Assembly (NCBI RefSeq): GCF_055900595.2 | Contig: NZ_CM148325.1 | Direction: 5' to 3' (one strand) | Length of the DNA stretch: 64,000 bases | Part shown: in pieces, positions 11,813 through 40,359 of the stretch | Layout of the letters: each line of letters opens with the position of its first letter | Numbering within the stretch: the first letter of the stretch is position 1 | Translations under genes and position numbers: made by a program | Notes under the pieces: generated by a model | What the model saw: only the letters and a program-made list of their open reading frames with translations | Told to the model about the DNA's origin: nothing | The model's database searches: none

Positions 11813-12574
11813 ATGCAATTGAGCAGCAGTGAACCTTGCGTGGTGATCCTGACCGAAAAAGAGGTAGAGGTAAGCGTCAATAACCATGCTACGTTTACCC
11901 TTCCGAAAAACTACCTGGCCGCCTTCGCGTGCAACAATAACGTCATTGAACTCTCAACGTTAAATCACGTATTAATCACCCACATCAACCGTAACATCAT
12001 CAACGATTATCTGTTGTTTTTAAATAAGAACTTAACCTGTGTAAAGCCCTGGTCGCGGCTGGCTACCCCGGTTATCGCTTGTCATAGCCGTACACCGGAA
12101 GTGTTCCGGCTAGCCGCCAACCACAGCAAGCAGCAACCCAGCAAACCCTGCGAAGCGGAGTTGACGCGCGCATTGCTTTTTACCGTATTGTCTAACTTTC
12201 TTGAGCAATCGCGGTTTATTGCCCTACTGATGTATATCTTACGCAGCAGCGTCCGCGACAGCGTCTGCCGCATTATTCAAAGCGATATTCAGCATTACTG
12301 GAATCTGCGAATTGTCGCCAGTTCGCTATGTTTAAGCCCCAGCCTGCTCAAAAAGAAATTAAAAAACGAAAATACCAGCTATAGCCAGATTGTCACAGAG
12401 TGTCGTATGCGTTACGCCGTACAGATGTTATTGATGGATAACAAAAATATCACTCAGGTAGCGCAATTATGTGGCTATAGCAGCACGTCGTACTTTATCT
12501 CTGTTTTTAAGGCGTTTTACGGCCTGACACCGTTGAATTATCTCGCCAAACAGCGACAAAAAGTGATGTGGTGA
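11813..12574 (+). CDS. envY: EnvY AraC-family transcriptional regulator (porin thermoregulation)
   Basis: 253-aa ORF with C-terminal AraC-type HTH (QVAQLCGYSSTSYFISVFKAFYGLTP); AT-rich gene. Confidence 0.85.
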   Translation: MQLSSSEPCVVILTEKEVEVSVNNHATFTLPKNYLAAFACNNNVIELSTLNHVLITHINRNIINDYLLFLNKNLTCVKPWSRLATPVIACHSRTPEVFRLAANHSKQQPSKPCEAELTRALLFTVLSNFLEQSRFIALLMYILRSSVRDSVCRIIQSDIQHYWNLRIVASSLCLSPSLLKKKLKNENTSYSQIVTECRMRYAVQMLLMDNKNITQVAQLCGYSSTSYFISVFKAFYGLTPLNYLAKQRQKVMW

Positions 12575-12617: not shown

Positions 12618-12664
12618 AATGGCGCGCCCTGCAGGATTCGAACCTGCGGCCCACGACTTAGAAG
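12618..12664. repeat. Prophage attachment-site repeat (attR): 47-bp identical copy of the 3' part of argU
   Basis: 12618-12664 is identical to 53560-53606 (3' 45 nt of the argU tRNA plus 2 nt), then diverges; marks the distal prophage boundary. Confidence 0.8.
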
Positions 12665-13086
12665 TTCCTAGAACGACATTTTAAGTCAACAACTTACCGC
12701 GCCATCTCTGCGCTCACACGTCCCACTACCTCAAAACATGTAAAGCCTTGCAAGCCATTGTGAGGCCTTATGTGTCTCAGTTTTGTCCCTCTTTTTTGTA
12801 CTAAAAAACATAGTAATTGAGGATAAACCTCATGCTATTTTCGCTTATATGCCTCTAAAGGCATGGCACTTAAATAGATAAAAGCACCACAAAAGCATAA
12901 AAAACCACACAGTAAAACCGCAATATGAAACAATAACAGATAATTAAACCAAAAACAGATAGCGCATTGTGATAATCATTCAATACTAAACAAAATATAA
13001 ACAGTGGAGCAATATGTAATTGACTCATTAAGTTAGATATAAAAAATACATATTCAATCATTAAAACGATTGAATGGAGAACTTTT

Positions 13087-14040
13087 ATGCGGGCGAAACT
13101 TCTGGGAATATTCCTGACAACCCCTATTGCGATCAGCTCTTTTGCTTCTACCGAGACTTTATCGTTTACTCCTGACAACATAAATGCGGACATTAGTCTT
13201 GGAACTCTGAGCGGAAAAACAAAAGAGCGTGTTTATCTAGCCGAAGAAGGAGGCCGAAAAGTCAGTCAACTCGACTGGAAATTCAATAACGCTGCAATTA
13301 TTAAAGGTGCAATTAATTGGGATTTGATGCCCCAGATATCTATTGGGGCTGCGGGCTGGACTACTCTCGGCAGCCGAGGTGGCAATATGGTCGATCAGGA
13401 CTGGATGGATTCCAGTAACCCCGGAACCTGGACAGATGAAAGTAGGCACCCTGATACACAACTCAATTATGCCAACGAATTTGATCTGAATATAAAAGGC
13501 TGGCTCCTCAACGAACCCAATTACCGCCTGGGACTCATGGCCGGATATCAGGAAAGCCGTTATAGCTTTACAGCCAGAGGTGGTTCCTATATCTACAGTT
13601 CTGAGGAGGGATTCAGAGATGATATCGGCTCCTTCCCGAATGGAGAAAGAGCAATCGGCTACAAACAACGTTTTAAAATGCCCTACATTGGCTTGACTGG
13701 AAGTTATCGTTATGAAGATTTTGAGCTAGGTGGCACATTTAAATACAGCGGCTGGGTGGAAGCATCTGATAACGATGAGCACTATGACCCAGGAAAAAGA
13801 ATCACTTATCGCAGTAAAGTCAAAGACCAAAATTACTATTCTGTTGCAGTCAATGCAGGTTATTACGTAACACCTAACGCAAAAGTTTATGTTGAAGGCG
13901 CATGGAATCGGGTTACGAATAAAAAAGGTAATACTTCACTTTATGATCACAATGATAACACTTCAGACTACAGCAAAAATGGTGCAGGCATAGAAAACTA
14001 TAACTTCATCACTACTGCTGGTCTTAAGTACACATTTTAA
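13087..14040 (+). CDS. ompT: OmpT outer-membrane protease (omptin)
   Basis: 317-aa ORF with signal peptide and omptin family sequence; classical DLP12 b-region cargo. Confidence 0.9.
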   Translation: MRAKLLGIFLTTPIAISSFASTETLSFTPDNINADISLGTLSGKTKERVYLAEEGGRKVSQLDWKFNNAAIIKGAINWDLMPQISIGAAGWTTLGSRGGNMVDQDWMDSSNPGTWTDESRHPDTQLNYANEFDLNIKGWLLNEPNYRLGLMAGYQESRYSFTARGGSYIYSSEEGFRDDIGSFPNGERAIGYKQRFKMPYIGLTGSYRYEDFELGGTFKYSGWVEASDNDEHYDPGKRITYRSKVKDQNYYSVAVNAGYYVTPNAKVYVEGAWNRVTNKKGNTSLYDHNDNTSDYSKNGAGIENYNFITTAGLKYTF

Positions 14041-14289: not shown

Positions 14290-15039
14290 TCAGTCAATTG
14301 TTTTGTTTATTCCATCTGTGACGCCGATTATTTTCTCAAAATAATGAGATGGCGTGACACCATAATAATCTTTAAATGCACATATGAAATATGAAGTACT
14401 GTTATAGCCACATTTCTGGGCTACGACATTGATAGAATAAGAGTTTGAAGTTATGAGTTTTTTTGCATACCTCATCCTAGTATCTCTCAATATTTCAGTA
14501 AATGACGTTCCTTCATCCCTTAATCTTTTTTTTATTAAACTTTCACTCGTATAAATCAATTCCGCAATATCTTTTAAATGCCATTGCCGCTCAATATTAA
14601 AACTGATTATTCCAGTAATTTTACATGTAAATGTATTTATATTTGTTAGTATAAATGAATTTACACTTTCGCGTTTTTTGAACATGGCAAGTAAGGATAT
14701 ACATAGTCTTTCTTTTAACCAAAGGGAGTGTGAGTCTGCTATTTTAATCCCTTCAAACAGAGAAAAAACAAGCGATAATGGAGGTTCCTCTTCAGCAATA
14801 TAGCCATTCTTATCAAGAGTAAATTTGCCAGGCAACTCATTATTCACGTCGATAAAAAAGGATAAACATGTTTTCTTATCTATATCAACAATTCTTAGTT
14901 TAGAGGGGCATACTGGTAACTCTCTTCTAATTTTGTCGCTTACAATAAACAATGAATTTTTTTTGAACGAGATAACTCTCCTGTTTATAATTAAATCAAA
15001 TGATTGACAGATGAAAACTACGGAGCAAACATAATCCAT
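14290..15039 (-). CDS. appY: AppY AraC-family transcriptional activator
   Basis: 249-aa AT-rich ORF with C-terminal AraC HTH ([26 protein letters not shown]). Confidence 0.85.
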
Positions 15040-15714
15040 CTTGCACCTATCATAAAATTAAAACAAGTTGATAGTAGTCAAATAACAGCCAATTAAATAC
15101 ACAATCATAATCAGGATGATGTGCATTTATATTTTTATACACAAAATTATAGTTTGCAAATTTTAATAAGTTTCATTTAAGATTAAATTATTATATGTAT
15201 ATTGTTTTTTATTCTAACGTATTTCAAAGTTACATTTTTCAACGCTTACTATGCTTTTTATTAACATAAACTCACTACAACGCACCTGAAACCTCTTGCT
15301 ATATATATGTCAACCGTTTGAATTTAAAATAAAAAGAGTATCATTTTTACTTGCATTTCTTATCAAGTCACATTCAACAACAGTAAAAAAACATTATTAG
15401 AACCATTCAATTAACAAAAAACCAACATCCAGCTTGCTTAATTTTTCTTTATTAAACGATATTGAAAATCAATTGATAAAATACATCTAAACAACCTTTT
15501 GGGGCGCAAAAGCATAACATCAAACAAACAAATAACACACCGAAAAAACTCACAATTAATAACCTATGATATACATACTGTTTATTATGGTTGAATAAGC
15601 CACTCGATATCTGGTGCTACGGAAGTGTCCACACGGTTTAGCAGCACCCGATACTTTTTCCAGGCTTCCAGCAACGAGTTTTCTTCCTCCGTTGCATATA
15701 CAGCTCACCTTTTT

Positions 15715-16008
15715 TCACCCACGATTAACCAACAGCCAGACCAGCAGACACGCCACCACCGGCACAGCAAAATCCATCAGGCTTGCCACATCCCATGCAC
15801 GTGTATCAAAACCGCCCCACCACGGCATATTCATTCGCTTGCCATGCCCGAACATTTCGATCCAGCGATATTCTGCCTGGGTGTGTTCACGCGCAATGAA
15901 GAACGTACAACCGGCTATCGCCCCGTAAGCCCAGTTTCCGGTAAAAAGACCAACCAGTACCTGCGCAGCCACAGCACAAAGTGCATGAAGGAAAGGTGTT
16001 ATATCCAT
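15715..16008 (-). CDS. Small hydrophobic membrane protein, function unknown, at the end of the tail-fibre remnant
   Basis: 97-aa ORF with two predicted transmembrane stretches; chosen over the overlapping plus-strand ORF 15625-16170 because of coherent hydrophobic segments and co-orientation with neighbouring phage genes. Confidence 0.4.
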   Translation of the reverse strand: MDITPFLHALCAVAAQVLVGLFTGNWAYGAIAGCTFFIAREHTQAEYRWIEMFGHGKRMNMPWWGGFDTRAWDVASLMDFAVPVVACLLVWLLVNRG

Positions 16009-16018
16009 TATTCCTCCT

Positions 16019-16723
16019 TTATCCGATATCGCTTCGGGAAGTTAATAACAACTTTAATTCTGACTCAAGTTCATCAACTCTTTCAGTCAGCTTCTGGATA
16101 TGGTGAATCAGTGGAACAACCAGACGTTCGTACATTACACCTTCGGCAACAAGGCCATTGCTGGAAATAGCTTCAGGAGCATCATCTTCGTTAGCTGGTC
16201 GCCAGTGTACAAACTGAGGGGCAATTTCTCCTACTTCCTCGGCAATCAATCCGTAGAACCCCCAGTCACGCCTGTCATTTTCGCATTGCGACCTGTACCA
16301 CACAGGGCGCATCCTGAAAATGACATCGGCGTGCTCTGAATCTATCGTCTCTACTGAATGTTTATAGCGGATAGACGATGTGGACCGCAGTACAGACGAA
16401 ATTGCAGGGTCAGGATTAAGATAAAGGTTTGCCGCCGCAGTAGTCGTGCCCAACCCCCATAAATAAAACGCTTCGCGGCCAGTCAGCGGGTAAAAATCAC
16501 CGCCATAACGACCGCTTTCCAGATCGTTCGCTTCCACTTTGTTTTTCAGCTTATTATCAACTTCAGTTTTTGTGTATCTGGTGCTGATATCCTGCTTTGC
16601 ACTGGTCATATCAATCTGAAGCGTTGATACTTTTCCGTTAATTGAGGAAATATCTTCCTTAGTTTTACTGACATCTCCCTTTAGCGTGGTGATATCTCCA
16701 GGAATTACTGTCGATGTAGCCAT
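16019..16723 (-). CDS. Phage tail-fibre C-terminal domain protein (coiled-coil plus putative chaperone-like C-terminus)
   Basis: 234-aa ORF; heptad-rich N-terminal half (TTLKGDVSKTKEDISSINGKVSTLQIDMTSAKQDIS) and C-terminal coiled coil typical of tail-fibre/spike tips. Confidence 0.5.
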   Translation of the reverse strand: MATSTVIPGDITTLKGDVSKTKEDISSINGKVSTLQIDMTSAKQDISTRYTKTEVDNKLKNKVEANDLESGRYGGDFYPLTGREAFYLWGLGTTTAAANLYLNPDPAISSVLRSTSSIRYKHSVETIDSEHADVIFRMRPVWYRSQCENDRRDWGFYGLIAEEVGEIAPQFVHWRPANEDDAPEAISSNGLVAEGVMYERLVVPLIHHIQKLTERVDELESELKLLLTSRSDIG

Positions 16724-16732
16724 TTGTCTCCC

Positions 16733-17014
16733 TCACATCCAGCCACGAAGTTGATGCTCAACAACAACCGCGTATTCATCGAATATTGACGGTGTTTTCA
16801 CATCATTAATGATGCGCACGTTTACAAAATATCCGTCTTCCTTAACACATACCGGCTCGCCATCTTCAGTAATTTCCCCGGTTTCTTTGTACACGTTACC
16901 TATCACATCAATGAGAACATTGTTCTGCATCACCTCGTCATCGTCATAACCAATGCTATCCATAAAGGCCGAAAAGTCGGCCTTGTCTGTGAATTTGATA
17001 ATTAAGTCTCGCAT
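16733..17014 (-). CDS. Hypothetical phage protein
   Basis: 93-aa acidic ORF, start overlaps the upstream tail-fibre-like gene stop (operon-like). Confidence 0.4.
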   Translation of the reverse strand: MRDLIIKFTDKADFSAFMDSIGYDDDEVMQNNVLIDVIGNVYKETGEITEDGEPVCVKEDGYFVNVRIINDVKTPSIFDEYAVVVEHQLRGWM

Positions 17015-18024
17015 TATATTACCTCTCCCATTTGTGCATCGGTTAATTCTTTATGCCATATACGAAAATTACGAATGTGACCGAAAAGATGACGTAGACC
17101 GCTATTAGTCTGTCCCCCAATCCTGAAGAAATAACCAGATTTAACACCGACATGATCCGTGGTTTTAGGAGTCCCATGCTGGGCATTGCTAACGAAATGC
17201 ACATTACCAGATTCATTTAAAACAAATCCAAGAACAGATTTTTGTTCAAATAATACTGGCGATACGGCGGCTACTGTACTACCGTTTTTATTGTGCATCG
17301 TAACACCAGGAAATAATGTTGAACTAATAGCAACACTTATATATTGACCCGGAGTTGTGCTCCCACCACTGGTATCAAAAATTCGTGGTGCTGCATTTGG
17401 CGTTTCGTTCCAGTTTGTATGAACTTCAGCTAGAAATGTTAAAGGTGGTGTACCGATATTGTTATTTGTTGGTATATTCACCATATCACTGGCTCTTGTG
17501 ACTGGCGTTGCCTCAGTAATAATAAACGAAGAAGCGCACGAACCGCCTTCGACCTGAGGAGTTGCAACATAAATATAATCATCTGCACCAGTGCTTCCCC
17601 CTTTTGGTGGTGCATATTGCACCATCGCACCGATCATATTTTCTGTATCAAGTGCCTTAATTGTTGCCTCAAAGAAAATCCATTTGCTTGCTTCATTTTT
17701 AACAGCCCTTGCAGTAATACGACTTGCAGCGCCGCCAGTTTTATCAATCGATAAATCTGTCATATTTAAGTAAGCATCACCCAGGAATTTGTAGGTAGAT
17801 CCATCATATTCTTCAAATCGTAATCGACATCTTAAATTTGGAGTCCCACTTTGTACCCTGCATGAGATAGTTACATACTTTTCATCGCCGGTAACATCAT
17901 ATCCTTTGCTTCCAGATACTGTGACAATAGAAATGGCTGAGGTTTGCCCCACCATTTCTGGTTTTAATGTGAATTTTGCGTACTGGAAACCAAAATCATC
18001 TACACCTGATGTATTTAAAATCAT
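17014..18024 (-). CDS. Phage tail fibre / receptor-binding-like protein, 5' end abutting IS1 (possibly truncated)
   Basis: ORF 17014-18048 begins with a non-ATG start inside IS1; first ATG (MILNTSG) at 18024; Gly/Thr/Ser-rich beta-type sequence with C-terminal motif NFRIWHKELTDAQMGEVI resembling lectin-like tail-fibre tips. Confidence 0.5.
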   Translation of the reverse strand: MILNTSGVDDFGFQYAKFTLKPEMVGQTSAISIVTVSGSKGYDVTGDEKYVTISCRVQSGTPNLRCRLRFEEYDGSTYKFLGDAYLNMTDLSIDKTGGAASRITARAVKNEASKWIFFEATIKALDTENMIGAMVQYAPPKGGSTGADDYIYVATPQVEGGSCASSFIITEATPVTRASDMVNIPTNNNIGTPPLTFLAEVHTNWNETPNAAPRIFDTSGGSTTPGQYISVAISSTLFPGVTMHNKNGSTVAAVSPVLFEQKSVLGFVLNESGNVHFVSNAQHGTPKTTDHVGVKSGYFFRIGGQTNSGLRHLFGHIRNFRIWHKELTDAQMGEVI

Positions 18025-18049
18025 ATTTGATGACGGTAATGACTCCAAC

Positions 18050-18553
18050 TTATTGATAGTGTTTTATGTTCAGATAATGCCCGATGACTTTGTCATGCAG
18101 CTCCACCGATTTTGAGAACGACAGCGACTTCCGTCCCAGCCGTGCCAGGTGCTGCCTCAGATTCAGGTTATGCCGCTCAATTCGCTGCGTATATCGCTTG
18201 CTGATTACGTGCAGCTTTCCCTTCAGGCGGGATTCATACAGCGGCCAGCCATCCGTCATCCATATCACCACGTCAAAGGGTGACAGCAGGCTCATAAGAC
18301 GCCCCAGCGTCGCCATAGTGCGTTCACCGAATACGTGCGCAACAACCGTCTTCCGGAGCCTGTCATACGCGTAAAACAGCCAGCGCTGGCGCGATTTAGC
18401 CCCGACATAGCCCCACTGTTCGTCCATTTCCGCACAGACGATGACGTCACTGCCCGGCTGTATGCGCGAGGTTACCGACTGCGGCCTGAGTTTTTTAAGT
18501 GACGTAAAATCGTGTTGAGGCCAACGCCCATAATGCGGGCAGTTGCCCGGCAT
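18050..18553 (-). CDS. insB: IS1 transposase InsB
   Basis: 167-aa ORF identical in character to IS1 InsB ([25 protein letters not shown]...). Confidence 0.95.
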
Positions 18554-18747
18554 CCAACGCCATTCATGGCCATATCAATGATTTTCTGGTGCGTACCGGG
18601 TTGAGAAGCGGTGTAAGTGAACTGCAGTTGCCATGTTTTACGGCAGTGAGAGCAGAGATAGCGCTGATGTCCGGCGGTGCTTTTGCCGTTACGCACCACC
18701 CCGTCAGTAGCTGAACAGGAGGGACAGCTGATAGAAACAGAAGCCAC
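18472..18747 (-). CDS. insA: IS1 protein InsA
   Basis: 91-aa [43 protein letters not shown]..., classic InsA with zinc finger. Confidence 0.95.
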
Positions 18748-18797
18748 TGGAGCACCTCAAAAACACCATCATACACTAAATCAGTAAGTTGGCAGCA

Positions 18798-19430
18798 TCA
18801 CCCATTACCGCCCATAATGATGATATTAGTGACGCCCTCACTAAATTCTGCGTAGCTCTCAATATCATCATTTGGATCAAAAGTTTCTTTATCCTTACCT
18901 GACCACTCAGCACCGCCAGACTGAGTGATGATATTTTGTGGTTTAATATTCCAGTCCAGCTCATAACGTTCAATACCATCGCCCTCAATGATATTTTTCC
19001 CCGTTGTGATTGCCTGAACGGCAAGCCATTCAATACGTGCACGAATAGCTTTAGCCTGATTTACAATCGCCTGTTTAACTTTAATATTACGCGCTCCAAA
19101 AGCATTGTATTGCTCAGGTGATACACCAGCAGGGCGCACAGCTAACTTATTTGGATCAATGCTGCTTTTCGGCTTCATATAGCCTGGACGAATTGTTTTT
19201 GATTCGAACCCTTCGTCACGTGAAACTTTACTACCCACCATAGGAGAACAAAACGCTGCAATTGGGATATTTGGATCGTCGATTGTATCAAGAATAATAT
19301 CGCGCGATTCAAACATTACCGAGCGAGTAAAAAACAAACTGGTAAACAACGCATTTAGTTGTTTTTGTACATCTACAGCATTAACCACCTGTACAAGCTG
19401 AGTAGGCGAATATAAATCAACCATACGCAT
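18798..19430 (-). pseudogene. Divergent lambda-E-family major capsid protein gene, 3' end truncated by IS1
   Basis: From Met at about 19430 the translation aligns with lambda gpE (FFTRSVMFESRD..., PGYMKPK, NIITQSGGAEWSGKDKETFDPNDDIESYA) and terminates at the IS1 junction after NIII, roughly half the length of gpE. Confidence 0.65.
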
Positions 19431-19640
19431 CCTCTTTGCATTCATTAAAAATAATTGTGGATATATGCTATCACCGATATTTGTCATGCGAACACATGCA
19501 ACCGAGTGCAATGTTGTATAAAGTTTTGGGGTGACAACTTCAGTGCGGACAATTAGTGTTAATATCTTCACTCCCTTTGGTCGGGATTTATGTAGCATGC
19601 CGGAAAATTTATTTTTTCTGGCTTTTTTTATTGGCAATAT

Positions 19641-20090
19641 TTAAAACGGGATATCATCTCCCCATTGCTCATTATCTCCCACTGGTGGCTGGCTTCCTTG
19701 CTGATCTGCCTGTTGTTTTGCTCTGTTCAGTGCGTCAGTAGCCTGCCCCTGTTGGCCTTTATTGCCGCCCGGTCGCACCGATCGCGCACTGATTACGCTG
19801 TCTGCGATAACCTGCCAGCCCTGCCGCGTTTCGCCGTTCTGTCCAGTCCACTGGCTCATCTGCATGTTACCCGCCACGCTCAGGAGTTCGCCTTTGTGAT
19901 GCTTTGCCAGCGCGTCGGCTTGTCTGCCAAACGCCAGGACAGATAACCACATCGTCGCCTGACCGTCATCCGACTGACTGCAGGGCAGTGATACCGCCAT
20001 ACGCGCCAGCGTCATGGGGGTGCCCTTGCTGGTCTGTTTTGTCTGCGGGTCGTCCACCAACCGCCCGTAAACTGATATTTGCGCCGTCAT
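19641..20090 (-). CDS. ssb: Single-stranded DNA-binding protein (SSB), phage/plasmid type
   Basis: 149-aa ORF with OB-fold-like N-terminus, Gly/Gln-rich linker and acidic C-terminal tail ending DDIPF. Confidence 0.8.
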   Translation of the reverse strand: MTAQISVYGRLVDDPQTKQTSKGTPMTLARMAVSLPCSQSDDGQATMWLSVLAFGRQADALAKHHKGELLSVAGNMQMSQWTGQNGETRQGWQVIADSVISARSVRPGGNKGQQGQATDALNRAKQQADQQGSQPPVGDNEQWGDDIPF

Positions 20091-20332
20091 GCTGCCTGCT
20101 CTCCGGACTTAATATTGATTGTTGTCACTTCCTCCGCTTCAGCAATCTCCCGTTCGGTCAGAGTGGCAAAGTTTGCAGCCGCCGTTGTCATGAATGCGCT
20201 AATCAGTTCGGGATGTGCTTTCGCGTATCCTTCCCCGGCGTTGCGGTCGATGATTTTTATCGACACCCTTAACCAGTGTTCCGTCAAATCAAGGGCGTGC
20301 GATTGTGATTTTTTTGTGTGCTTCGCTGTCAT
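20087..20332 (-). CDS. Hypothetical protein upstream of ssb
   Basis: 81-aa ORF overlapping the ssb start by 4 nt. Confidence 0.4.
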   Translation of the reverse strand: MTAKHTKKSQSHALDLTEHWLRVSIKIIDRNAGEGYAKAHPELISAFMTTAAANFATLTEREIAEAEEVTTINIKSGEQAA

Positions 20333-20384
20333 AGGCTTTATCTCACAGCAGTAAATTAAAATTTTTGCGTTTTAACCCTTCACC

Positions 20385-20605
20385 TGTTCACCTTTTGATA
20401 TTTTCTCTTTTAATTCATAATGTTAATGGGTGAACAGTTTCACAAAAACTATTCACCAACTGTTCACCACTGTTCACCCTTGAAGCTCAATAAACAATCA
20501 AAAAGGTGAACAGTGAATAGTTTGGTGAACAGTTCATAAATAACTGTTCACCCTATAATATACTGATATAAAAGATATTTATGACAGGGTGAACAGTGGT
20601 GAACA
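20385..20605. repeat. P4-type replication origin/crr-like iteron cluster (TGTTCACC octamers)
   Basis: Nine copies of TGTTCACC / GGTGAACA in both orientations (20385, 20429, 20461, 20471, 20505, 20524, 20545, 20588, 20598) with an AT-rich stretch, immediately 3' of the primase gene. Confidence 0.75.
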
Positions 20606-20619
20606 GTTATTCCATAAGT

Positions 20620-22440
20620 TTAATTTTTGCTATCGTCATTAGTGACCGATACACATGATGGCATCCAGTCTTCTGATTCCTCCGTCAGTGTCACGTTTGA
20701 ACGCAAACCGTGCTTCGTTTTCCGTTTCATATACTCCCTGCCATATTCCGCCATTGCCCCCGGCATATCTTTACCGAAGCGCGTCAGTGTTACAGGTTTA
20801 CCAAACCCATGTGCCCTCATATAAGCCAGATAGGCATGATAGAGATACCTGCGTGGGCTAAATGGCACAATTTCAGCATTACCCACTAACAGGCCATCAC
20901 ACATTACCGATGCCATGAGATAGCCGCAGAAGTCCACCAGCGAATCCCCCTCTCGCTTTATCGCCAGTGCTTCTTCAGATTTCTGCTGCTCATATAACAG
21001 GCGTCTGGCTTCGTCCTGATCATCAAACCGTGTAAGCAGATGACGAATCACTACCGCCAGCTCACCTTCTATTTTTTCCGCCAGCATCGAATCGCGTTCG
21101 TTCTCCGGTACAACTTCCGAAAAATTGAATATCACCCGACGACGTGAGATCCCCCCGCTGCGGTCACTGAATGACATGGCGTTATTGTTAACCGCCAGCA
21201 CTACTGCCGGAATACGCGTTGAATAGGGGGCTTTGTGTTTCGGGTCAATTGCCACCTTGTCACCGCCTGTAATGGCCTTAATCCCTGCCCCATCACCAGC
21301 GTAGCGGGTCATATCCGGCATGATAATCAGCGAAAAGCCAACCACTAACGCACGTTCCCTTGCATCTTCCAGCGCCTTCATGCTTGCTGATACTGTATTA
21401 GCCTTACCCGCCAGCATGGTGCAAATCTCCGCCATCACACTTTTACCACTTCCCCCCGGCCCTGTTACCTCAATGAATAACTGCCAGTCGTACCGGTTCG
21501 CCAGCACCATGAATAATGCCGCCAGTACGCGATCTGCCTTGCGGTCATTCTCAGCCACCGAACGGCGCAACCACTTCCAGAAATTCGGCGCATGTGTTGC
21601 CAGCGTTTCCCCCTCTGCTGGTGGGCTGAAAGGTAATTCACTGGCAATTAACAACCAGTCGTTTTTGTTATGCTCCCGAAAATTACCTGTTCTGGTATCA
21701 AATACCCCGTTACTGAATCCAATCAGGTTACGGGCTGTATTCCCCATTACAGGCAAACTTAACTTCATGGTATCTACCGCCGATTTAATGGCGTTCTGCG
21801 AATAGCTGATCTCCACATCAATGAAAATCTGCGCCATAGCACGCTGTAACTCTTTATCCTGAACCGGCTCCCATACAACGCCGTTGTAATGATGAACGGT
21901 GTCAGAGTCGGCATTGATTGCCAGTTCGCCGCCGTAATGTGCCAGGAGAACTTCACCGCGCTGGCTGGCCCCCATCTGATTCAACGCCAAAGATGAAGCA
22001 CGCTCGTCATTTTTGCGCTCTGCCTTCTTCACTGGCAGTTCAATCACCAGACTTTCCCCATGCTCCGCTTCAGCTTTTAGGCCGACAAGGCGCGGAGTCC
22101 AGTCTTCAGGCTCTCGATCAACAAAGCTACGGTAACAACGTGCTTCCTTTACGCCTGCAATAGCAAGTAATGTCGCAACCTTCGTCAGATTTTTCTCTGC
22201 GATCTTTCCGGCACGATAAACACGCACATAATGACGGCCTTCATCGATAATTTGCATATCATCCAGGTTTTCCAGTTGTTCCGTACCCAGAATTACTGGT
22301 GGTGTATCATCTGCTGCAATATGCTTACCCGCCCATTCATTCCATTCTTTTGCATGGCTCCAGGCATCACTGCCAGCAAAAATGATGACTTCTGTCATTT
22401 TGTCGCGCGGTTGGTATTTTAAGTTCGGAGCACGTTTCAT
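20620..22440 (-). CDS. P4-alpha-family primase/helicase (phage/plasmid primase, P-loop NTPase)
   Basis: 606-aa ORF with Walker A GPGGSGKS and primase C-terminal-type sequence; adjacent to TGTTCACC iterons. Confidence 0.8.
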   Translation of the reverse strand: MKRAPNLKYQPRDKMTEVIIFAGSDAWSHAKEWNEWAGKHIAADDTPPVILGTEQLENLDDMQIIDEGRHYVRVYRAGKIAEKNLTKVATLLAIAGVKEARCYRSFVDREPEDWTPRLVGLKAEAEHGESLVIELPVKKAERKNDERASSLALNQMGASQRGEVLLAHYGGELAINADSDTVHHYNGVVWEPVQDKELQRAMAQIFIDVEISYSQNAIKSAVDTMKLSLPVMGNTARNLIGFSNGVFDTRTGNFREHNKNDWLLIASELPFSPPAEGETLATHAPNFWKWLRRSVAENDRKADRVLAALFMVLANRYDWQLFIEVTGPGGSGKSVMAEICTMLAGKANTVSASMKALEDARERALVVGFSLIIMPDMTRYAGDGAGIKAITGGDKVAIDPKHKAPYSTRIPAVVLAVNNNAMSFSDRSGGISRRRVIFNFSEVVPENERDSMLAEKIEGELAVVIRHLLTRFDDQDEARRLLYEQQKSEEALAIKREGDSLVDFCGYLMASVMCDGLLVGNAEIVPFSPRRYLYHAYLAYMRAHGFGKPVTLTRFGKDMPGAMAEYGREYMKRKTKHGLRSNVTLTEESEDWMPSCVSVTNDDSKN

Positions 22441-22724
22441 TTGTTACCTCCGGCAACTAACATTGCCCGAATTTTGCGGATATAGCCTGCGGCACGCCTC
22501 TGATTATCTGTCTTGCAATTTTTTACCAGAATGAAATCTCTTTCGAACTGCTGACGCGGCATAACACATTCAAAATCATAACCATCACGCAAATAAGAGA
22601 CACGACGATCATCAACCGAAATAATCTTTACCCGATAGCCATAGCTGTCTTTGAAAATATCCCCAAGGCTGATTTTTGAATGAGTTTGACCGCTGGCAAT
22701 AAAGCCAGAAAATTTATTTTTCAT
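22437..22724 (-). CDS. Hypothetical protein of the P4-like module
   Basis: 95-aa ORF overlapping the primase start (operon-like). Confidence 0.45.
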   Translation of the reverse strand: MKNKFSGFIASGQTHSKISLGDIFKDSYGYRVKIISVDDRRVSYLRDGYDFECVMPRQQFERDFILVKNCKTDNQRRAAGYIRKIRAMLVAGGNK

Positions 22725-22727
22725 TTT

Positions 22728-22952
22728 TTATTCTCCGGTATAGCTCTGGTCGTGTATTTTTATAGCTTCATCCAGCTCTTTGATGACAGGATCAAGTAAC
22801 GTAATTAACGCTCCAGCTAAATTAGCATCCCGTTCATCGTGTTCCGCATTTGTTGTCCCATCAAGCCAGGTTGATAAGATTTCTCGCATATTTTTGCCAC
22901 AAACGAGCGCGTTTTCAGCATGTGTCAGCACTTTAAAATAAAGATCATTCAT
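22728..22952 (-). CDS. Hypothetical protein of the P4-like module
   Basis: 74-aa acidic ORF in tandem with downstream genes. Confidence 0.4.
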   Translation of the reverse strand: MNDLYFKVLTHAENALVCGKNMREILSTWLDGTTNAEHDERDANLAGALITLLDPVIKELDEAIKIHDQSYTGE

Positions 22953-23259
22953 GGCACACCTCCTGACGAATACGGGCGGCGAATATCATCACGTAGCCAG
23001 TTGGGGATTGCAGCCGGGCTTCCTGTTCGCTGGCGGCCTCGATGGTAATCACGCGCGGTTGTGCCGTACTCAGGGCGATAAAACGCCAGATGTATTTATT
23101 CAGGTTGTGCGGGTCCCGCCCTTGCGGGTGTGTGGTATGATTTCTCATAGCTACCTCGATACTGTTGCTATCGTTGGTGGTTAGAAGCCCGTTGGTGTTC
23201 CTAGCACCTTCGGGCTTTGCTTTTTTAAGTGCCTCCGTGTTAAGGTGGTCACCTAACAA
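22945..23259 (-). CDS. Hypothetical protein of the P4-like module (true start probably the internal Met at 23148)
   Basis: 104-aa ORF; 5' part overlaps an opposite-strand ORF, so a shorter 67-aa product from 23148 is more plausible. Confidence 0.35.
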   Translation of the reverse strand: MLGDHLNTEALKKAKPEGARNTNGLLTTNDSNSIEVAMRNHTTHPQGRDPHNLNKYIWRFIALSTAQPRVITIEAASEQEARLQSPTGYVMIFAARIRQEVCHE

Positions 23260-23479
23260 TGAAAAGGCTAATTCAATAGGTGGTCACTTGTCAACGATCA
23301 AACGCGATAAAAGTCCTAAGGGTGATGGGCAATCTCCACAATTCAGAATGCGAATTTCTCCAGAGCTAAAAGAGCAATTCGACAAAGAAGCGCAGAGCGA
23401 CGGCATAAGCCTAGCCAACTGGCTTAAAGAATTAGGGCGCAAAGAGCTGCTACGGCGCGGTATTGAACCAAAAGGATAA
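23165..23479 (+). CDS. Putative ribbon-helix-helix DNA-binding protein (true start probably internal)
   Basis: C-terminal 45 residues (QFRMRISPELKEQFDKEAQSDGISLANWLKELGRKELL) fit an Arc/CopG-type RHH pattern; two GGTGGTCAC direct repeats lie just upstream of the likely start. Confidence 0.45.
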   Translation: MLSLVVRSPLVFLAPSGFAFLSASVLRWSPNNEKANSIGGHLSTIKRDKSPKGDGQSPQFRMRISPELKEQFDKEAQSDGISLANWLKELGRKELLRRGIEPKG

Positions 23480-23506
23480 GAATAATTGAAGTCAAGGAGC
23501 TAACAC

Positions 23507-23863
23507 ATGAAATACGAATTCTTCGCAACAAGTAGCAGTAGTTTGGATGTATACATAGTCACTGTATCAAACGATTCTGGCTCTCTAATCATGACTTGTA
23601 ATTGTCCAGCAGGAAGTAAAGGTATTCTATGTAGACACCGTAAAGCTTTAATTACCGGAAAAATCCGCGGTATATTCACTCCCCCAAGAAGGAATAATCC
23701 CGAAAAATTACAAGAAGCTATAAATTTAATAGCCACATATGGCATAGATAAAACATTAAAGTTGTACACTGATGAGTTAGAACGAGCAGAACAGACTTGG
23801 ATAAGTGTTCGCGATAATTTGAGAGCAATGATAAACGCTCTTGTTGAACCACCTAAATATTGA
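23507..23863 (+). CDS. Small SWIM-zinc-finger-like protein (cargo gene)
   Basis: 118-aa AT-rich ORF with CxC-x8-CxH motif (CNCPAGSKGILCRH); followed by a hairpin terminator. Confidence 0.55.
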   Translation: MKYEFFATSSSSLDVYIVTVSNDSGSLIMTCNCPAGSKGILCRHRKALITGKIRGIFTPPRRNNPEKLQEAINLIATYGIDKTLKLYTDELERAEQTWISVRDNLRAMINALVEPPKY

Positions 23864-23929
23864 ACTGTTCACATTGCCTATCAGGCGATAACCTCGTATT
23901 CTGATTAAGGCTAACTATATACTCACATT

Positions 23930-23955
23930 GGCGACCAATTCTGGTCGCCTTTATC
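23930..23955. terminator. Hairpin between two convergent cargo genes (likely bidirectional intrinsic terminator)
   Basis: GGCGACC-aattct-GGTCGCC stem-loop followed by TTTATC; sits between the convergent 118-aa and 284-aa genes. Confidence 0.55.
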
Positions 23956-23994
23956 TACCATTTTTATAATATCATAGATTAAGAGTGTTAATCC

Positions 23995-24849
23995 TTACCC
24001 CCTGAATGGAATTGATGAGGATTTAATTTCCACAGAACCAAATCCTCTTGAATCCAAAAACATTTTTATACCAGCCTCAATAAAATCATAATCGCTTGTC
24101 GGGCCAATTGTAATGCTTTTAATTGGTAACTTTCTATTATCTTTATTATTAATAATGATATAAGGGATGATACCATTATTATTTATTCTAAATTTCACAT
24201 CTGGCATTTGTATCCACGGAGTAAACACCAGTCTAAATTCATTTTCTTCGATAAAACTAGGATGTTTAAAAAATGGGATATATTTAGATATAAATTGATA
24301 CGTAGAGACCATTGTTACAAAATGATCATTCATTTCTTTAATGTTAATACCATTACAAGAAAAAAACTCATCCAACTCCTTACTCATCTTTGTAATATCG
24401 TCATTATTTGAATATATAACATCATGTGCAACACAATTTAAATAAATATTTTGACAAAAACTCACAAGTTCATCCGCATCAAATTCAATGCAAACGCCCT
24501 GTTTATTTCCGTAACCTCTCCACTGACTTAACTTATCGTTTTCTTTACAAAAAGATATGCTATAAACATGTTTATCAATCCCTTTTTCTTTTTGTAACTT
24601 CCCTTTCTCATACATGTCAAGAGACTTGAGCAAAATAGTTTTCTTATCTTTTGGGATGATATTATCATCAACTATTTTAATTGTATTTCGAAAACATTCA
24701 CATCCATGGTTAGACTCCTCTTTATCATTTAAGAAATATATATTTGTAGCCCATAAAGAATTAGAGTCTAATATACCTTTCAAACCAAAAAGATCTGTAT
24801 AATGAAATATAGCCACAATGCCCCACCTAATAGTTAAGTCGTTTCCCAC
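23995..24849 (-). CDS. DUF2971-like protein (candidate anti-phage cargo gene)
   Basis: 284-aa very AT-rich ORF; motifs FHYTDLFGLKGIL, YFLNDKEE, SISFC...LSQWRGYGN..GVCIEFD resemble my recollection of DUF2971; overlaps the alpA stop (co-transcribed). Confidence 0.5.
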   Translation of the reverse strand: MGNDLTIRWGIVAIFHYTDLFGLKGILDSNSLWATNIYFLNDKEESNHGCECFRNTIKIVDDNIIPKDKKTILLKSLDMYEKGKLQKEKGIDKHVYSISFCKENDKLSQWRGYGNKQGVCIEFDADELVSFCQNIYLNCVAHDVIYSNNDDITKMSKELDEFFSCNGINIKEMNDHFVTMVSTYQFISKYIPFFKHPSFIEENEFRLVFTPWIQMPDVKFRINNNGIIPYIIINNKDNRKLPIKSITIGPTSDYDFIEAGIKMFLDSRGFGSVEIKSSSIPFRG

Positions 24850-25064
24850 TCACCTCGAATCCATGCCTGCACTTCTGAAAGACGATATGCAACAGCAGTG
24901 GAACCAATCTTGATCCGCTTAGGAAATTTTCCTTCCTTCTCCAGCTTCCAGCGTGTGCTGTTCGCAAGAGTGGTTAGCTCCCGACATTCTTTCTCACGGA
25001 TCATACGATCGATGTTAGGAATGTACTCCAGACCCTTTTTATCAACAATTGCCATTTTTTTCAT
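24834..25064 (-). CDS. alpA: AlpA-family phage transcriptional regulator/excisionase-like HTH protein
   Basis: 76-aa ORF directly downstream of the integrase, sequence pattern (ELTTLANSTRWKLEKEGKFPKRIKIGSTAVAYRLSEVQAWI) typical of AlpA. Confidence 0.8.
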   Translation of the reverse strand: MKKMAIVDKKGLEYIPNIDRMIREKECRELTTLANSTRWKLEKEGKFPKRIKIGSTAVAYRLSEVQAWIRGEWETT

Positions 25065-25065
25065 G

Positions 25066-26352
25066 TTAACCAGCCTTTTGTTTGAGGATTGTCACTTTTG
25101 AATCAGCACCTGCGATGCTATTGAGATATGTAGTCCAGAGTTCCAGAGCATCCAGTTTTTTAGCCATAAACTTACTCCGGTTGTAAACACCCGCCACGCC
25201 AGGTAGCGCATGGCCTAACAGTTGTTCTACTACATAAAATTCAACACCGAGATCACTTAGATGAGTAGATAGCGTTCTTCTAAGGTCGTGTAGTGACCAT
25301 TGTTTTTCATGGCCCAAACGTTTACCGATTTTCCCCCCAATCTTGCTTACGCTTTCTCTAATTCGCAGACTTCCCAGCACATAACCAGTATGTTTTGTCT
25401 CTTCGTGAACATCCGTTACCCACTGTCGTAGAATTTCAGGTACTGGTCTGACGATTTCAACACCAGTTTTTGAGTGATCTTTTGGTACCGTCCAAACCCA
25501 ACTTTCGAGATCCCATTCGCTCCATTCAGATAATCGGGCTTCACTCATTCGACATCCAAATACTGTACAAAGCACAAACATTTTTCGCGTGTATTCAGAC
25601 ATTAGTTTTAAATCAGGCTCGACAAAAATTGCCTTCCAGAGCTGGCCGAGTTCGGCTTCATCCAGAACCCGATCCCGCTTACCTGCAATCTGCCCCACAT
25701 CACTCATGCGCAAATCCTTTAAAGCATCACACGTCGCGTACTGGCGTACCCGACAAAAACGAAGAGCTAATTTAGTGTCAGAAAAAACATACGCCGCCAT
25801 AACTGGTGCATTACGTTTAATTCGGTCAAAACAGTCCAGCCATTCATATAGGTGAGTGTCATTTACGGGCAAATGACCGATATAGGGAAAGATATGCTTT
25901 CGAAATCTGCCAAGCGTTACAGCATGAGTTTTACGACGCACCTTACAGTAATTTTCATACCAGTAATTTAGTGCATCCTCCACTGTGACCGGCTTTAAGC
26001 GTTCTTCAGCCTGAATCTTAATCTGGATACGCGGATCACGTTTGTCAGCCAACCAACCACGGCACTCGTCGCGCTTTTCCCTTGCCTGTTTGAGTGACAT
26101 ATCAGGATATTTACCCAACGTTAGCCAGACCGGAGCAGCCCGGCCACCTGCTAACCTGTAGAAGAAAACAAAGCTCACAGCCCCTTTAGTACTCACACGA
26201 ATAGAAAGCCCCTTTCCATCAGCAATGGTGATCTGCTTTTCTCTGGGTTTCCCCAGATATCCTTTAAGCGCTTTGTCGCTCAGTTTGTTCTCGCCAGCCA
26301 TTTTTAGCCCCAAAAAGCAATACAAGCTGCAATACAGAGATGATTGCAACAC
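25066..26352 (-). CDS. Tyrosine recombinase/integrase (P4-type)
   Basis: 428-aa ORF with C-terminal catalytic region containing HDLRRT and LLGHA...Y motifs; int-alpA arrangement typical of P4-like islands. Confidence 0.85.
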   Translation of the reverse strand: MLQSSLYCSLYCFLGLKMAGENKLSDKALKGYLGKPREKQITIADGKGLSIRVSTKGAVSFVFFYRLAGGRAAPVWLTLGKYPDMSLKQAREKRDECRGWLADKRDPRIQIKIQAEERLKPVTVEDALNYWYENYCKVRRKTHAVTLGRFRKHIFPYIGHLPVNDTHLYEWLDCFDRIKRNAPVMAAYVFSDTKLALRFCRVRQYATCDALKDLRMSDVGQIAGKRDRVLDEAELGQLWKAIFVEPDLKLMSEYTRKMFVLCTVFGCRMSEARLSEWSEWDLESWVWTVPKDHSKTGVEIVRPVPEILRQWVTDVHEETKHTGYVLGSLRIRESVSKIGGKIGKRLGHEKQWSLHDLRRTLSTHLSDLGVEFYVVEQLLGHALPGVAGVYNRSKFMAKKLDALELWTTYLNSIAGADSKVTILKQKAG

Positions 26353-26433
26353 ACAGATAACGAGGAAAATTCAGTGAAAGCACCAGATAAACTTATTCTT
26401 TATTATCAAAAGATTAAGTGTAAAAACCAGCAA

Positions 26434-26764: not shown

Positions 26765-27097
26765 TTAAACGATGCTGATTGCCGTTCCGGCAAACGCGGT
26801 CCGTTTTTTAGTCTCGTCGCTGGCAGCCTCCGGCCAGAGCACATCCTCATAACGGAACGAGCCGGACTTGTAGAACGTCAGTGTGGTGCTGGTCTGGTCA
26901 GCAGCAACCGCCAGAATGCCAACGGCTGCACCGTCGGTGGTGCCATCCCACACAACCAGCTTACGGGTAGTGCCATCCAGCATCAGCGGGGTCATTGCAG
27001 GCGTTTTCGCACTCAATCCGCCAGGCGCAATTGCTGTATGAGCCGGATCACTGTTACCCAGCGGCTGGTAATGGTTAAACTCTTCTTTTGTCGCCAT
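26765..27097 (-). CDS. D: Head decoration protein D
   Basis: 110-aa ORF closely matching lambda gpD ([14 protein letters not shown]...FAGTAISIV). Confidence 0.9.
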
Positions 27098-27106
27098 AAC
27101 TGCCTC

Positions 27107-28418: not shown

Positions 28419-28438
<20 letters not shown>
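27107..28438 (-). CDS. C: Head maturation protease/scaffold C (S49 family; Nu3 nested)
   Basis: ORF 27107-28552; start placed at the codon giving VTAELRNLPHIASMAFNEPL as in lambda gpC; overlaps portal gene end. Confidence 0.85.
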
Positions 28439-32119
<3,681 letters not shown>

Positions 32120-32145
<26 letters not shown>

Positions 32146-38700: not shown

Positions 38701-38907
38701 AACTCAGACCAGAACGCCAATTACAAGCAAAAATCAACAAAACAGTATTAGTTGATTGTTATCTCTGACTTCATACTCCTGCTCCTGTCAGTGTTTTGGC
38801 GTAATTCTTCAGTATTCGGTAATCGGTCAAAACAGAGCCGGGGAAACGATATAAGCGCAGACGCCCCCAGCGGTGGCGAAGAAGTTCTGCCATATTAAAC
38901 TCAAACA

Positions 38908-40333: not shown

Positions 40334-40359
40334 GGCGGGTTGATTATTGAAAATCAAAG

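What the first reader, a model, noticed from the sequence alone, without database searches (positions are those of the whole stretch)
12618..12664. Partial argU duplication defines a 41-kb prophage that places ompT and appY inside and envY outside
A 47-bp exact copy of the argU 3' region sits between envY and ompT, and the intact argU abuts intD at the other end. This gives explicit att boundaries (12618-12664 and 53560-53606). The prophage interior then holds ompT and appY in the b-region between attR and the tail remnants.
Basis: seen in the sequence. Interest (0 to 1): 0.3.

Follow-up and report, generated by a model that had tools for sequence, protein, structure and literature searches.

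The report
DLP12-type prophage att sites at argU
The 47-base repeat is real and marks the two ends of a defective lambda-like virus inserted in the E. coli argU tRNA gene, carrying ompT and appY as passenger genes; this is the long-known DLP12 arrangement, so it is correct but ordinary.

Summary
Observation confirmed. An exact 47-bp direct repeat lies at 12618-12664 and 53560-53606, with none expected by chance. It consists of the anticodon loop through the 3' end of argU plus 2 nt.

Interpretation supported by two in-silico tests. (1) Empty site: a chimeric envY-flank + argU-flank query is collinear in 2445 of 5426 complete E. coli genomes. The junctions fall exactly at the repeat edges, and envY is retained. 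(2) attP: the predicted excision junction intD-core-ompT is collinear at 99.1-99.4% in isolated phages (Kati, Turner, 2G7b, ev243). Kati also carries an AppY 100% identical to the window's.

So ompT and appY are phage cargo and envY is chromosomal. None of this is new. MG1655 RefSeq annotates DLP12 with exactly these boundaries, Ramisetty & Sudhakari 2019 describe the 47-bp argU-like attR, and Wang et al. 2010 measured DLP12 excision.

The window's copy is a larger (40,942 bp) but still defective relative. It has intact int/xis, immunity, replication, lysis and terminase genes. Its capsid gene is split by a helper-embedded PICI satellite, an IS1-associated deletion has removed all tail genes, and an IS10-like element interrupts the porin gene.

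The parts
11813..12574 (+). envY, chromosomal flank outside the element
   Evidence: PGAP annotation of the 99.98%-identical strain E400634. The same EnvY protein accession occurs in empty-site genomes VCSW7 and O157:H7 PV15-279.
12618..12664 (.). attR core: displaced partial copy of argU (tRNA positions 33-77 plus 2 nt)
   Evidence: Exact 47-bp repeat. Its left edge is the point where homology to the empty site ends (A1). Its right side is continuous with the phage attP arm (A2).
12665..12790 (.). Phage P arm of the attachment site, conserved with attP of argU-type phages (Kati, 2G7b, SEN22); its distal part is also conserved with thrW-type phage SfI. Overlaps a sub-threshold tRNA-like match at 12631-12714 (-).
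   Evidence: Alignments A2 and A3. Rfam tRNA match of 24.8 bits against a gathering score of 29.
13087..14040 (+). ompT (omptin outer-membrane protease), cargo next to attR
   Evidence: ORF of 317 aa, PGAP name. Collinear with int-core in phages Kati, Turner, 2G7b and ev243 at 99.1-99.4%.
14290..15039 (-). appY (AraC-family activator), cargo
   Evidence: PGAP name. 249/249 aa identical to the regulator gene of phage Kati located next to ompT.
15585..18034 (-). Tail-fibre and tail-fibre-assembly remnants (side-fibre region)
   Evidence: PGAP annotation of the identical sequence in E400634: tail fiber assembly pseudogene, tail fiber domain protein, head spike fiber domain pseudogene. Laminin_G_3 domain.
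18035..18802 (-). IS1 (768 bp) at the deletion junction that removed the tail genes V to J and the far end of the nested satellite
   Evidence: 23-nt terminal inverted repeats at 18035-18057 and 18780-18802. 167-aa InsB-like transposase, phrog_720. Synteny with E400634 and with MLI106K1 breaks at 18034 and 18803.
18803..26433 (-). Truncated helper-embedded PICI satellite (11capE type): integrase 25066-26352, HTH 24834-25064, DUF2971 23995-24849, SWIM 23507-23863 (+), primase-helicase 20620-22440, SSB 19641-20090, truncated own capsid gene 18798-19637
   Evidence: Pfam Arm-DNA-bind_3 + Phage_integrase; D5_N/Pox_D5/DUF5906. phrog_29 major head protein. 98.3% identical to the complete element in MLI106K1. 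Kind described by Mageeney et al. 2023, PMC10111431.
26434..26709 (-). N-terminal fragment (about 82 codons) of the prophage's lambda-E-like major capsid gene, interrupted by the satellite
   Evidence: phrog_6020/2353 major head protein, profile positions 1-82. PGAP 'major capsid protein, missing C-terminus' in MLI106K1.
26765..32665 (-). Lambda-like head and packaging genes: D-like decoration, C/S49 protease, portal, head-tail joining, terminase large subunit (30220-32145), Nu1/nohD (32120-32665)
   Evidence: ORFs. 98.3% identity to the annotated MLI106K1 genes. 96-98% identity to lambda-like phages.
33933..35148 (-). Lysis cassette (rzpD, rrrD, essD homologues)
   Evidence: ORFs. 96.8% match to the annotated MLI106K1 lysis genes.
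35825..37151 (+). IS10-like (IS4 family, ISVsa5-type) insertion at the 5' end of the nmpC/ompC-type porin gene (porin remnant 37135-38112)
   Evidence: 402-aa DDE_Tnp_1 transposase and 325-aa Porin_1 protein. Insertion relative to E400634 between 35824 and 37152. PGAP name in related genomes.
38302..46023 (-). Early-right region: Q antiterminator (38302-38700), nin region, Ant-like anti-repressor (41561-42169), P (43470-44171), O (44168-45187), cII (45184-45723), cro (45793-46023)
   Evidence: PHROGs hits. Homology to the annotated K-12, E400634 and MLI106K1 genes.
46062..48378 (+). cI-type repressor (HTH + S24 peptidase, 46062-46817) followed by a Ser/Thr kinase (46913-47638) and a PP2C phosphatase (47635-48378)
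   Evidence: Pfam.
52126..52527 (+). Xis-like excisionase ORF (HTH_17), intact
   Evidence: Pfam HTH_17. 100% identical to the ORF in phage 2G7b and 99% to Kati. Truncated in K-12 (xisD pseudogene) and in E400634.
52383..53546 (+). intD, tyrosine integrase, intact
   Evidence: PF00589, E = 5e-47. 388/388 identical (387 aa plus stop) to K-12 IntD, and 385-386/388 to the integrases of phages Kati and 2G7b.
53560..53606 (.). attL core, inside the intact argU
53562..53638 (-). argU, tRNA-Arg(UCU), regenerated intact by the phage-borne copy of its 3' part
   Evidence: ARAGORN. PGAP tRNA-Arg.

Best explanation
The two 47-bp copies are the attR and attL cores left by site-specific integration of a DLP12-family lambdoid phage into argU, the tRNA-Arg(UCU) gene. 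The phage attP carries a copy of argU from the first base of the anticodon loop to the 3' end, plus 2 nt. The tyrosine integrase IntD, encoded 13 nt from the core, recombines attP with argU (attB). The int-proximal junction therefore regenerates an intact argU, and the displaced native 3' piece is left 41 kb away beside envY. Everything between the cores entered with the phage, including ompT and appY, which sit in the position of the lambda b region between attP and the tail-fibre genes. envY is host DNA.

Shown here: the repeat, the exact empty-site junction, the reciprocal attP junction in isolated phages, the cargo status of ompT and appY, and intact int and xis.

Inferred: strand exchange within the anticodon-loop end of the core, by analogy with P22-type tRNA integrases; and present-day competence for Int/Xis-mediated excision. 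The element cannot make virions, because its capsid gene is split by a truncated satellite and all tail genes are deleted. At most it can excise, replicate and lyse.
For: The repeat is exact and not due to chance, and it covers the 3' 45 nt of the only tRNA in the window. Empty site: a chimeric envY-flank + argU-flank query matches as one place covering at least 80% in 2445 of 5426 complete E. coli genomes. The 30 best are single pieces of 2059-2060 nt at 99.0-99.2%. Alignment A1 shows homology switching exactly at the core edges. attP: a chimeric intD-core-ompT query is collinear in one piece at 99.1-99.4% in phages Kati, Turner, 2G7b and ev243. The ECOR-derived PhiR phage records begin or end in the core. 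The five-way alignment A2 shows the pattern expected for attB x attP giving attL + attR. Kati is collinear with window 12618-15695 (core-ompT-appY) and 52156-53606 (xis-int-core), and its AppY is 100% identical. Strain N58 has two elements in tandem at argU, each with its own ompT next to its core. IntD has a full catalytic domain and equals K-12 IntD; Xis equals that of phage 2G7b. K-12 MG1655 RefSeq annotates 'cryptic prophage DLP12' at 564755..586056, running from the first base of one core to the base before the other. Published: the 47-bp argU-like attR (PMC6379469); DLP12 excises at under 1 per 100,000 cells and reconstitutes the tRNA (PMC3105296); ompT is part of DLP12 (PMC2588501).
Against: No experiment was done on this strain, so excision, integrase expression and the crossover point inside the 47 bp are not shown. 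The interval is a composite, with a nested satellite and two IS elements, so not all 41 kb arrived in one integration event. No complete genome in the collection carries the same prophage end to end; the best is 86% coverage at 97% identity. The history of the interior is therefore inferred from mosaic relatives.
Confidence: 0.95

Rival explanations
1. The interval is the sum of two successive integrations at argU. An old remnant would have contributed ompT-appY and a later prophage the rest, with the internal att core lost. In that case ompT and appY were not brought in by the present prophage.
For: Tandem arrays do occur at this site: strain N58 has remnant-core-prophage, each with its own ompT. 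B2-type strains keep a 3-kb ompT remnant with a diverged core, 91% over 46 nt. The interior is mosaic relative to all complete genomes.
Against: The window contains no third core copy or fragment of at least 18 nt. Phage Kati carries xis-int-core-ompT-appY as one contiguous 4.5-kb block at 98.9-99.4% identity to the two ends of the window's element. A single phage of this type therefore explains both ends.
Confidence: 0.04
2. The att sites are genuine but are now only scars. In this strain the element is fixed and never excises, because int/xis are silent or some required site has decayed.
For: The prophage is defective in other respects: split capsid gene, no tail genes and two IS elements. 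K-12 DLP12 excises only at under 1 per 100,000 cells. Many lineages carry decayed versions.
Against: Both cores are exact. IntD and the Xis-like ORF are full length and essentially identical to those of plaque-forming phages. The P and P' arms are 99% identical to the attP of phages Kati and 2G7b. The cI repressor retains an S24 autocleavage domain.
Confidence: 0.25
3. The 47-bp copy is a chance match or a local duplication of argU unrelated to any mobile element.
For: None beyond the bare existence of a repeat.
Against: Zero matches in 100 shuffles. The repeat is not embedded in a larger duplication. The interval it bounds is absent as a unit in 2445 genomes. The reciprocal junction exists in phage genomes.
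Confidence: 0.005

Closest known systems
Cryptic lambdoid prophage DLP12 of E. coli K-12 (Lindsey, Mullin & Walker 1989, cited from the reference list seen, paper not held; RefSeq NC_000913.3 feature 564755..586056)
   Same: Same insertion site (argU) and same 47-bp core at both ends. Same flanks (fimZ-argU | envY-ybcH). IntD is 100% identical. Same order: int ... Q-porin-lysis-nohD ... tail-fibre remnants-appY-ompT. ompT and appY are inside and envY outside.
   Different: The K-12 copy is 21,302 bp; this one is 40,942 bp. The window keeps an intact xis, exo/bet/gam, cI/cro/cII, O/P, terminase large subunit, portal, protease and decoration genes, all of which K-12 lacks or has as pseudogenes. 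The IS elements differ: IS1 and an IS10-like element here, IS3 and IS5 in K-12. The window also contains a nested HE-PICI fragment and a kinase/phosphatase pair.
Isolated ompT-carrying lambdoid phages Kati (PP925833), Turner (PP925837), 2G7b (NC_049954, Nesevirus) and ev243 (NC_049955)
   Same: The xis-int-attP core-ompT block is 99% identical, and Kati also has appY. Their head and terminase genes are about 97% identical to the window's. They are the free form of what is integrated here.
   Different: They are complete genomes of 45-48 kb with full tail modules. The window's element has lost its capsid integrity and all tail genes. 2G7b carries an alpha/beta hydrolase and a methyltransferase instead of appY.
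P22 / SfI-SfV-SfX type integration modules at thrW (tRNA-Thr)
   Same: The integrases are homologous (75-80% nucleotide identity) and the int-attP layout is the same. The attP core is a copy of the 3' part of a tRNA starting at the anticodon loop, and a lysogenic-conversion cargo lies immediately beyond the P arm (gtrABC in SfI, ompT here). The distal P arm is nearly identical between SfI and Kati.
   Different: The core and the following 43 nt or so form a tRNA-length cassette that is replaced, so the target is thrW rather than argU. The virion modules also differ.
Helper-embedded PICI satellites, site E:Phage_cap_E:80 (Mageeney et al. 2023, PMC10111431). This applies to the nested element only.
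   Same: An integrase with an arm-binding domain, an HTH regulator, a D5-type primase and its own E-like capsid gene are inserted at about codon 80-82 of the helper's lambda-E-like capsid gene. They are co-oriented with the late genes.
   Different: Here the satellite's distal end and its second att site are deleted next to IS1. It can therefore no longer excise to restore the capsid gene.

Membership tests
DLP12-family lambdoid prophage at argU | IntD-type tyrosine integrase gene immediately adjacent to an intact argU | tested here: met
   intD at 52383-53546 ends 15 nt from the argU 3' end. PF00589. 388/388 identical to K-12 IntD.
DLP12-family lambdoid prophage at argU | Second copy of the 47-bp argU 3' segment at the far end, between ompT and envY | tested here: met
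   12618-12664 is an exact copy. The same sequence occurs at both ends of K-12 DLP12, at positions that match the RefSeq feature limits.
DLP12-family lambdoid prophage at argU | Lambdoid gene order with ompT and appY between the tail-fibre remnants and the att core | tested here: met
Integrase-mediated insertion into a tRNA gene (attB x attP -> attL + attR) | Unoccupied attB in related genomes, with junctions exactly at the repeat edges | tested here: met
   2445 of 5426 genomes; alignment A1.
Integrase-mediated insertion into a tRNA gene (attB x attP -> attL + attR) | Reciprocal attP junction present in the free element | tested here: met
   int-core-ompT is collinear in four isolated phage genomes; alignment A2.
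Integrase-mediated insertion into a tRNA gene (attB x attP -> attL + attR) | tRNA gene regenerated intact after insertion | tested here: met
   ARAGORN calls a complete tRNA-Arg(UCU) at 53562-53638 and nothing at 12618-12664.
Integrase-mediated insertion into a tRNA gene (attB x attP -> attL + attR) | Recombination directionality factor (Xis) present | tested here: met
   HTH_17 ORF at 52126-52527 overlaps the int start and is identical to the phage 2G7b ORF. Its function was not assayed.
Integrase-mediated insertion into a tRNA gene (attB x attP -> attL + attR) | Demonstrated excision or integration activity, and a mapped crossover point within the core | not testable with these tools
   Only literature on K-12 DLP12 is available: excision at under 1 per 100,000 cells (PMC3105296).
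Intact (inducible, plaque-forming) temperate phage | Complete capsid and tail modules | tested here: not met
   The capsid gene E is reduced to an 82-codon fragment. The tail genes V to J that are present in MLI106K1 are absent, with IS1 at the junction.
Helper-embedded PICI (nested element) | Integrase of the HE-PICI type inserted in a prophage late gene and co-oriented with it, together with a regulator and a primase | tested here: met
   definition from PMC10111431. Membership of the integrase in the published clade was not tested phylogenetically.
Helper-embedded PICI (nested element) | Both satellite att sites (short identity block) flanking the element | tested here: inconclusive
   The distal end is deleted in the window. 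In MLI106K1 a 21-nt imperfect direct repeat flanks the element (20137-20157 and 30688-30708 of L007), but it was not compared with the published 10-bp block.

The most novel reading that the evidence does not exclude
In this integrase family the attP may embed a whole, half-decayed tRNA gene. Between the conserved int 3' end and a conserved distal P arm, a cassette of about 90 nt differs wholesale between argU-type phages (Kati, 2G7b, SEN22, this prophage) and thrW-type phages (SfI). The cassette consists of the 47-bp host-identical tRNA 3' part plus about 43 nt with weak tRNA-like 5'-half features. This would mean that target switching between tRNA genes happened by swapping a tRNA-gene-length cassette rather than by gradual change of the core. 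It would also mean that the partial argU beside ompT is the 3' half of a phage-borne pseudo-tRNA.
Probability: 0.3. Interest if true: 0.3.

Novelty: already known. Interest (0 to 1): 0.1.

Why it matters
The result matters mainly as a check. It shows that a reader working from raw sequence can recover correct prophage boundaries from a partial tRNA duplication. It also gives clean in-silico equivalents of the attB and attP PCR tests.

Biologically it restates three known points. ompT (a protease relevant to virulence and to protein production) and appY are phage-borne conversion genes that travel next to attP. About 45% of complete E. coli genomes have an empty argU site. envY is a host gene.

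The window adds one further member of the family. It shows several decay routes in a single element: a satellite inserted in the capsid gene, an IS1-associated deletion of the tail genes, and an IS10-like insertion in the porin gene.

Tried and rejected
(1) Larger duplication around the repeat: none. It extends only to 50 nt with one mismatch.

(2) A third, degenerate argU fragment that would mark an older element or place envY inside one: none of at least 18 nt in the window. A fuzzy regex attempt timed out.

(3) envY as old phage cargo. Its G+C is lowish and it is AraC-family like appY. However, it is present in empty-site genomes, and B2-type strains keep only a vestige of its 3' end next to the core. 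It is therefore treated as a host flank that was deleted in that lineage.

(4) A full-length match to the window's prophage in complete E. coli genomes or in phage records: none. The best is 86% coverage at 97% identity. For 12665-37600 the best was 39% coverage in the phage collection and 64% in the E. coli genomes.

(5) Lindsey et al. 1989 could not be read, as the paper is not held. It is cited only from the reference list seen.

(6) Literature on the PhiR, Kati and 2G7b phages carrying ompT: searches found nothing useful.

(7) The tRNA-like signal in the P arm is below Rfam's gathering score (24.8 against 29 bits) and ARAGORN does not call it. It is kept only as a curiosity.

(8) A first BLAST script failed because of how locus files are stored. 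It was repeated successfully.

Full report
**1. The observation**

Reading the sequence and searching for the pattern show the 47-mer AATGGCGCGCCCTGCAGGATTCGAACCTGCGGCCCACGACTTAGAAG at exactly 12618-12664 and 53560-53606.
- Both copies are on the + strand and have no mismatch.
- None of 100 dinucleotide-preserving shuffles gave a match.
- A whole-window repeat search finds this pair as one of only two direct-repeat families. It extends the pair to only 50 nt with one mismatch, at a spacing of 40,942 bp. The repeat is therefore not part of a larger duplication.
- ARAGORN finds a single tRNA in the window, tRNA-Arg(UCU) at 53562-53638 on the minus strand.
- Indexing the tRNA shows that the repeat starts at position 33, the first base of the anticodon loop, runs to the CCA end and adds two downstream bases.

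**2. Where the window comes from**

The window is E. coli chromosome. The gene order is cusCFBA-cusRS-nfrBA-ybcH-envY | ompT-appY-prophage-intD | argU-fimZ-sfm-folD.
- Its backbone is 99.96-99.98% identical to strain E400634 over 1-18034 and 52777-64000.
- E400634 has only a DLP12-like remnant of about 21.7 kb between the same two cores.

**3. Empty-site test**

I joined the envY flank (11600-12617) to the argU flank (53560-54600) and searched 5,426 complete E. coli genomes.
- 2,445 genomes hold this chimera as one place covering at least 80% of the query.
- The 30 best are single pieces of 2,059-2,060 nt at 99.0-99.2% identity. They include soil isolates and O157:H7.
- In the annotated examples envY is followed directly by tRNA-Arg and fimZ.
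- The alignment of both window junctions with two empty sites (A1) shows homology switching exactly at the two edges of the 47-bp block.
- EnvY has the same protein accession in occupied and empty genomes, so it is outside the element.

**4. attP test**

I joined intD + core (52383-53606) to the sequence that follows the other core (12665-14100, ompT) and searched 50,697 phage records.
- The chimera is collinear in a single piece at 99.1-99.4% in Escherichia phages Kati, Turner, 2G7b and ev243.
- Several ECOR-derived PhiR phage records begin or end inside the core.
- 2G7b has int-attP-ompT-hydrolase-methyltransferase-tail fibre.
- Kati has int-attP-ompT-regulator-...-tail fibre, and that regulator is 249/249 identical to the window's AppY.
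- Kati is collinear with window 12618-15695 and 52156-53606.
- The five-way alignment of attB, both window junctions and two attP sequences (A2) shows the textbook pattern.
- Strain N58 adds independent support. It has two elements in tandem at argU, each with its own ompT next to its own core.

**5. State of the recombination module**

- IntD has a complete Phage_integrase domain.
- IntD is identical to K-12 IntD and differs at 2-3 residues from the integrases of Kati and 2G7b.
- The overlapping upstream ORF (52126-52527) has an HTH_17 excisionase-type domain and is identical to the 2G7b ORF.
- That same ORF is a truncated pseudogene in K-12 and in E400634.
- Both cores are exact, and the arms are about 99% identical to phage attP.
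- Excision competence is therefore a reasonable inference, but it is not shown.
- By analogy with P22-type tRNA integrases (my knowledge of the family, not tested), strand exchange is expected in the anticodon-loop end of the core.

**6. What the 41 kb contains**

The element is a DLP12-type lambdoid prophage that is more complete than K-12's but still defective.

Genes present:
- int, xis and the exo/bet/gam region;
- a cI repressor with an S24 domain, cro, cII, O and P;
- an Ant-like protein, the nin region and Q;
- the lysis genes, Nu1, terminase large subunit, portal, protease and decoration protein.

Defects:
- The lambda-E-like capsid gene stops after about 82 codons (26434-26709). At that point an integrase-primase element is inserted (18803-26433).
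- In strain MLI106K1 the same element is complete. There it splits the capsid gene and carries its own capsid and decoration genes and a TIR protein.
- This element is the helper-embedded PICI described by Mageeney et al. 2023 at site E:Phage_cap_E:80.
- In the window its distal end and every tail gene from V to J are missing. A 768-bp IS1 (18035-18802) sits at the junction, consistent with an IS1-mediated deletion.
- An IS10-like element (about 35825-37151) cuts the 5' end of the porin gene.
- The element therefore cannot make particles.

**7. Comparison with what is known**

- K-12 MG1655 RefSeq annotates 'cryptic prophage DLP12' at 564755..586056.
- The same 47-mer lies at 564755-564801 and 586057-586103. 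The curated feature runs from the first base of one core to the base before the other.
- Ramisetty & Sudhakari 2019 state that the probable attR is similar to 47 bp of argU at the other end of DLP12.
- Wang et al. 2010 treat DLP12 as 21,302 bp, note that it reconstitutes a functional tRNA, and measured excision at under 1 per 100,000 cells.
- Guillier & Gottesman 2008 state that ompT is part of DLP12.
- The finding is therefore correct and already known. The window is another, larger member of the family.

**8. A side observation on attP**

I aligned attP of Kati (argU type), SfI (thrW type, with an annotated attP core) and SEN22.
- The end of int and the distal P arm are conserved.
- About 90 nt in between differ completely between the argU and thrW types: the tRNA-identical core plus about 43 nt.
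- That segment is conserved between Kati and the Salmonella P22-like phage SEN22.
- Rfam gives a sub-threshold tRNA match across it in the window (12631-12714, 24.8 bits against a gathering score of 29). The Kati record annotates a 'tRNA-Pro' there, but ARAGORN calls nothing.
- This may mean that target specificity is exchanged as a tRNA-length cassette. I did not test it further.

**9. Other lineages**

- In B2-type strains such as MY504 the site holds a 3-kb remnant: diverged core, an ompT allele about 88-90% identical, a methyltransferase, a tail-fibre-assembly fragment and an integrase fragment.
- In those strains envY is reduced to a vestige of its 3' end.
- 1,587 genomes have the window's envY-core-ompT junction.

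**10. Verdict**

The novelty rating is 'already known' and interest is low.

Noticed in passing
window 18803-26709 (complete copy in L007 at about 20060-30835): A satellite is nested inside the prophage. It has a tyrosine integrase with an arm-binding domain, an HTH regulator, DUF2971, SWIM, a D5-type primase-helicase, SSB and its own E-like capsid gene. It is inserted at about codon 82 of the prophage's major capsid gene. It matches the published helper-embedded PICI type (11capE, site E:Phage_cap_E:80). In MLI106K1 it also carries a TIR-domain protein.
   Followed up: partly
window 18035-18802: A complete 768-bp IS1 sits exactly where synteny with relatives breaks, between the tail-fibre remnants and the satellite's capsid gene. 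This fits an IS1-mediated deletion that removed tail genes V to J and the satellite's distal att site.
   Followed up: partly
window 35825-38112: An IS10-like element (IS4 family, 402-aa transposase) is inserted at the 5' end of the prophage's nmpC/ompC-type porin gene. In K-12 the same gene is disrupted by IS5 at a different position.
   Followed up: partly
window 46913-48378: A Ser/Thr protein kinase and a PP2C phosphatase lie directly downstream of the cI repressor on the same strand, in the position lambda uses for rexAB. This may be a lysogen-expressed exclusion or defence pair.
   Followed up: no
window 12631-12714 (-); L009 5936-6019: The phage arm next to the core, together with the core, gives a sub-threshold tRNA-like match (Rfam 24.8 bits against 29). 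The phage Kati record annotates it as 'tRNA-Pro'. Compared with thrW-type attP (SfI), a segment of about 90 nt, the length of a tRNA gene, is swapped between conserved flanks.
   Followed up: partly
L006 (strain N58) 2440-12483; L005 (strain MY504) 5828-9457: N58 has a tandem array at argU: a 3-kb remnant followed by a second prophage, each with its own ompT allele. B2-type strains such as MY504 have only the 3-kb remnant (diverged core, an ompT allele about 88-90% identical, a methyltransferase). They lack envY except for a vestige of its 3' end, and they lack the sfm/fimZ cluster on the other side of argU.
   Followed up: partly
window 52126-52527: The Xis-like ORF is intact here and identical to that of phage 2G7b. 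In K-12 it is the xisD pseudogene, and in the otherwise near-identical strain E400634 it is cut after 60 codons.
   Followed up: yes
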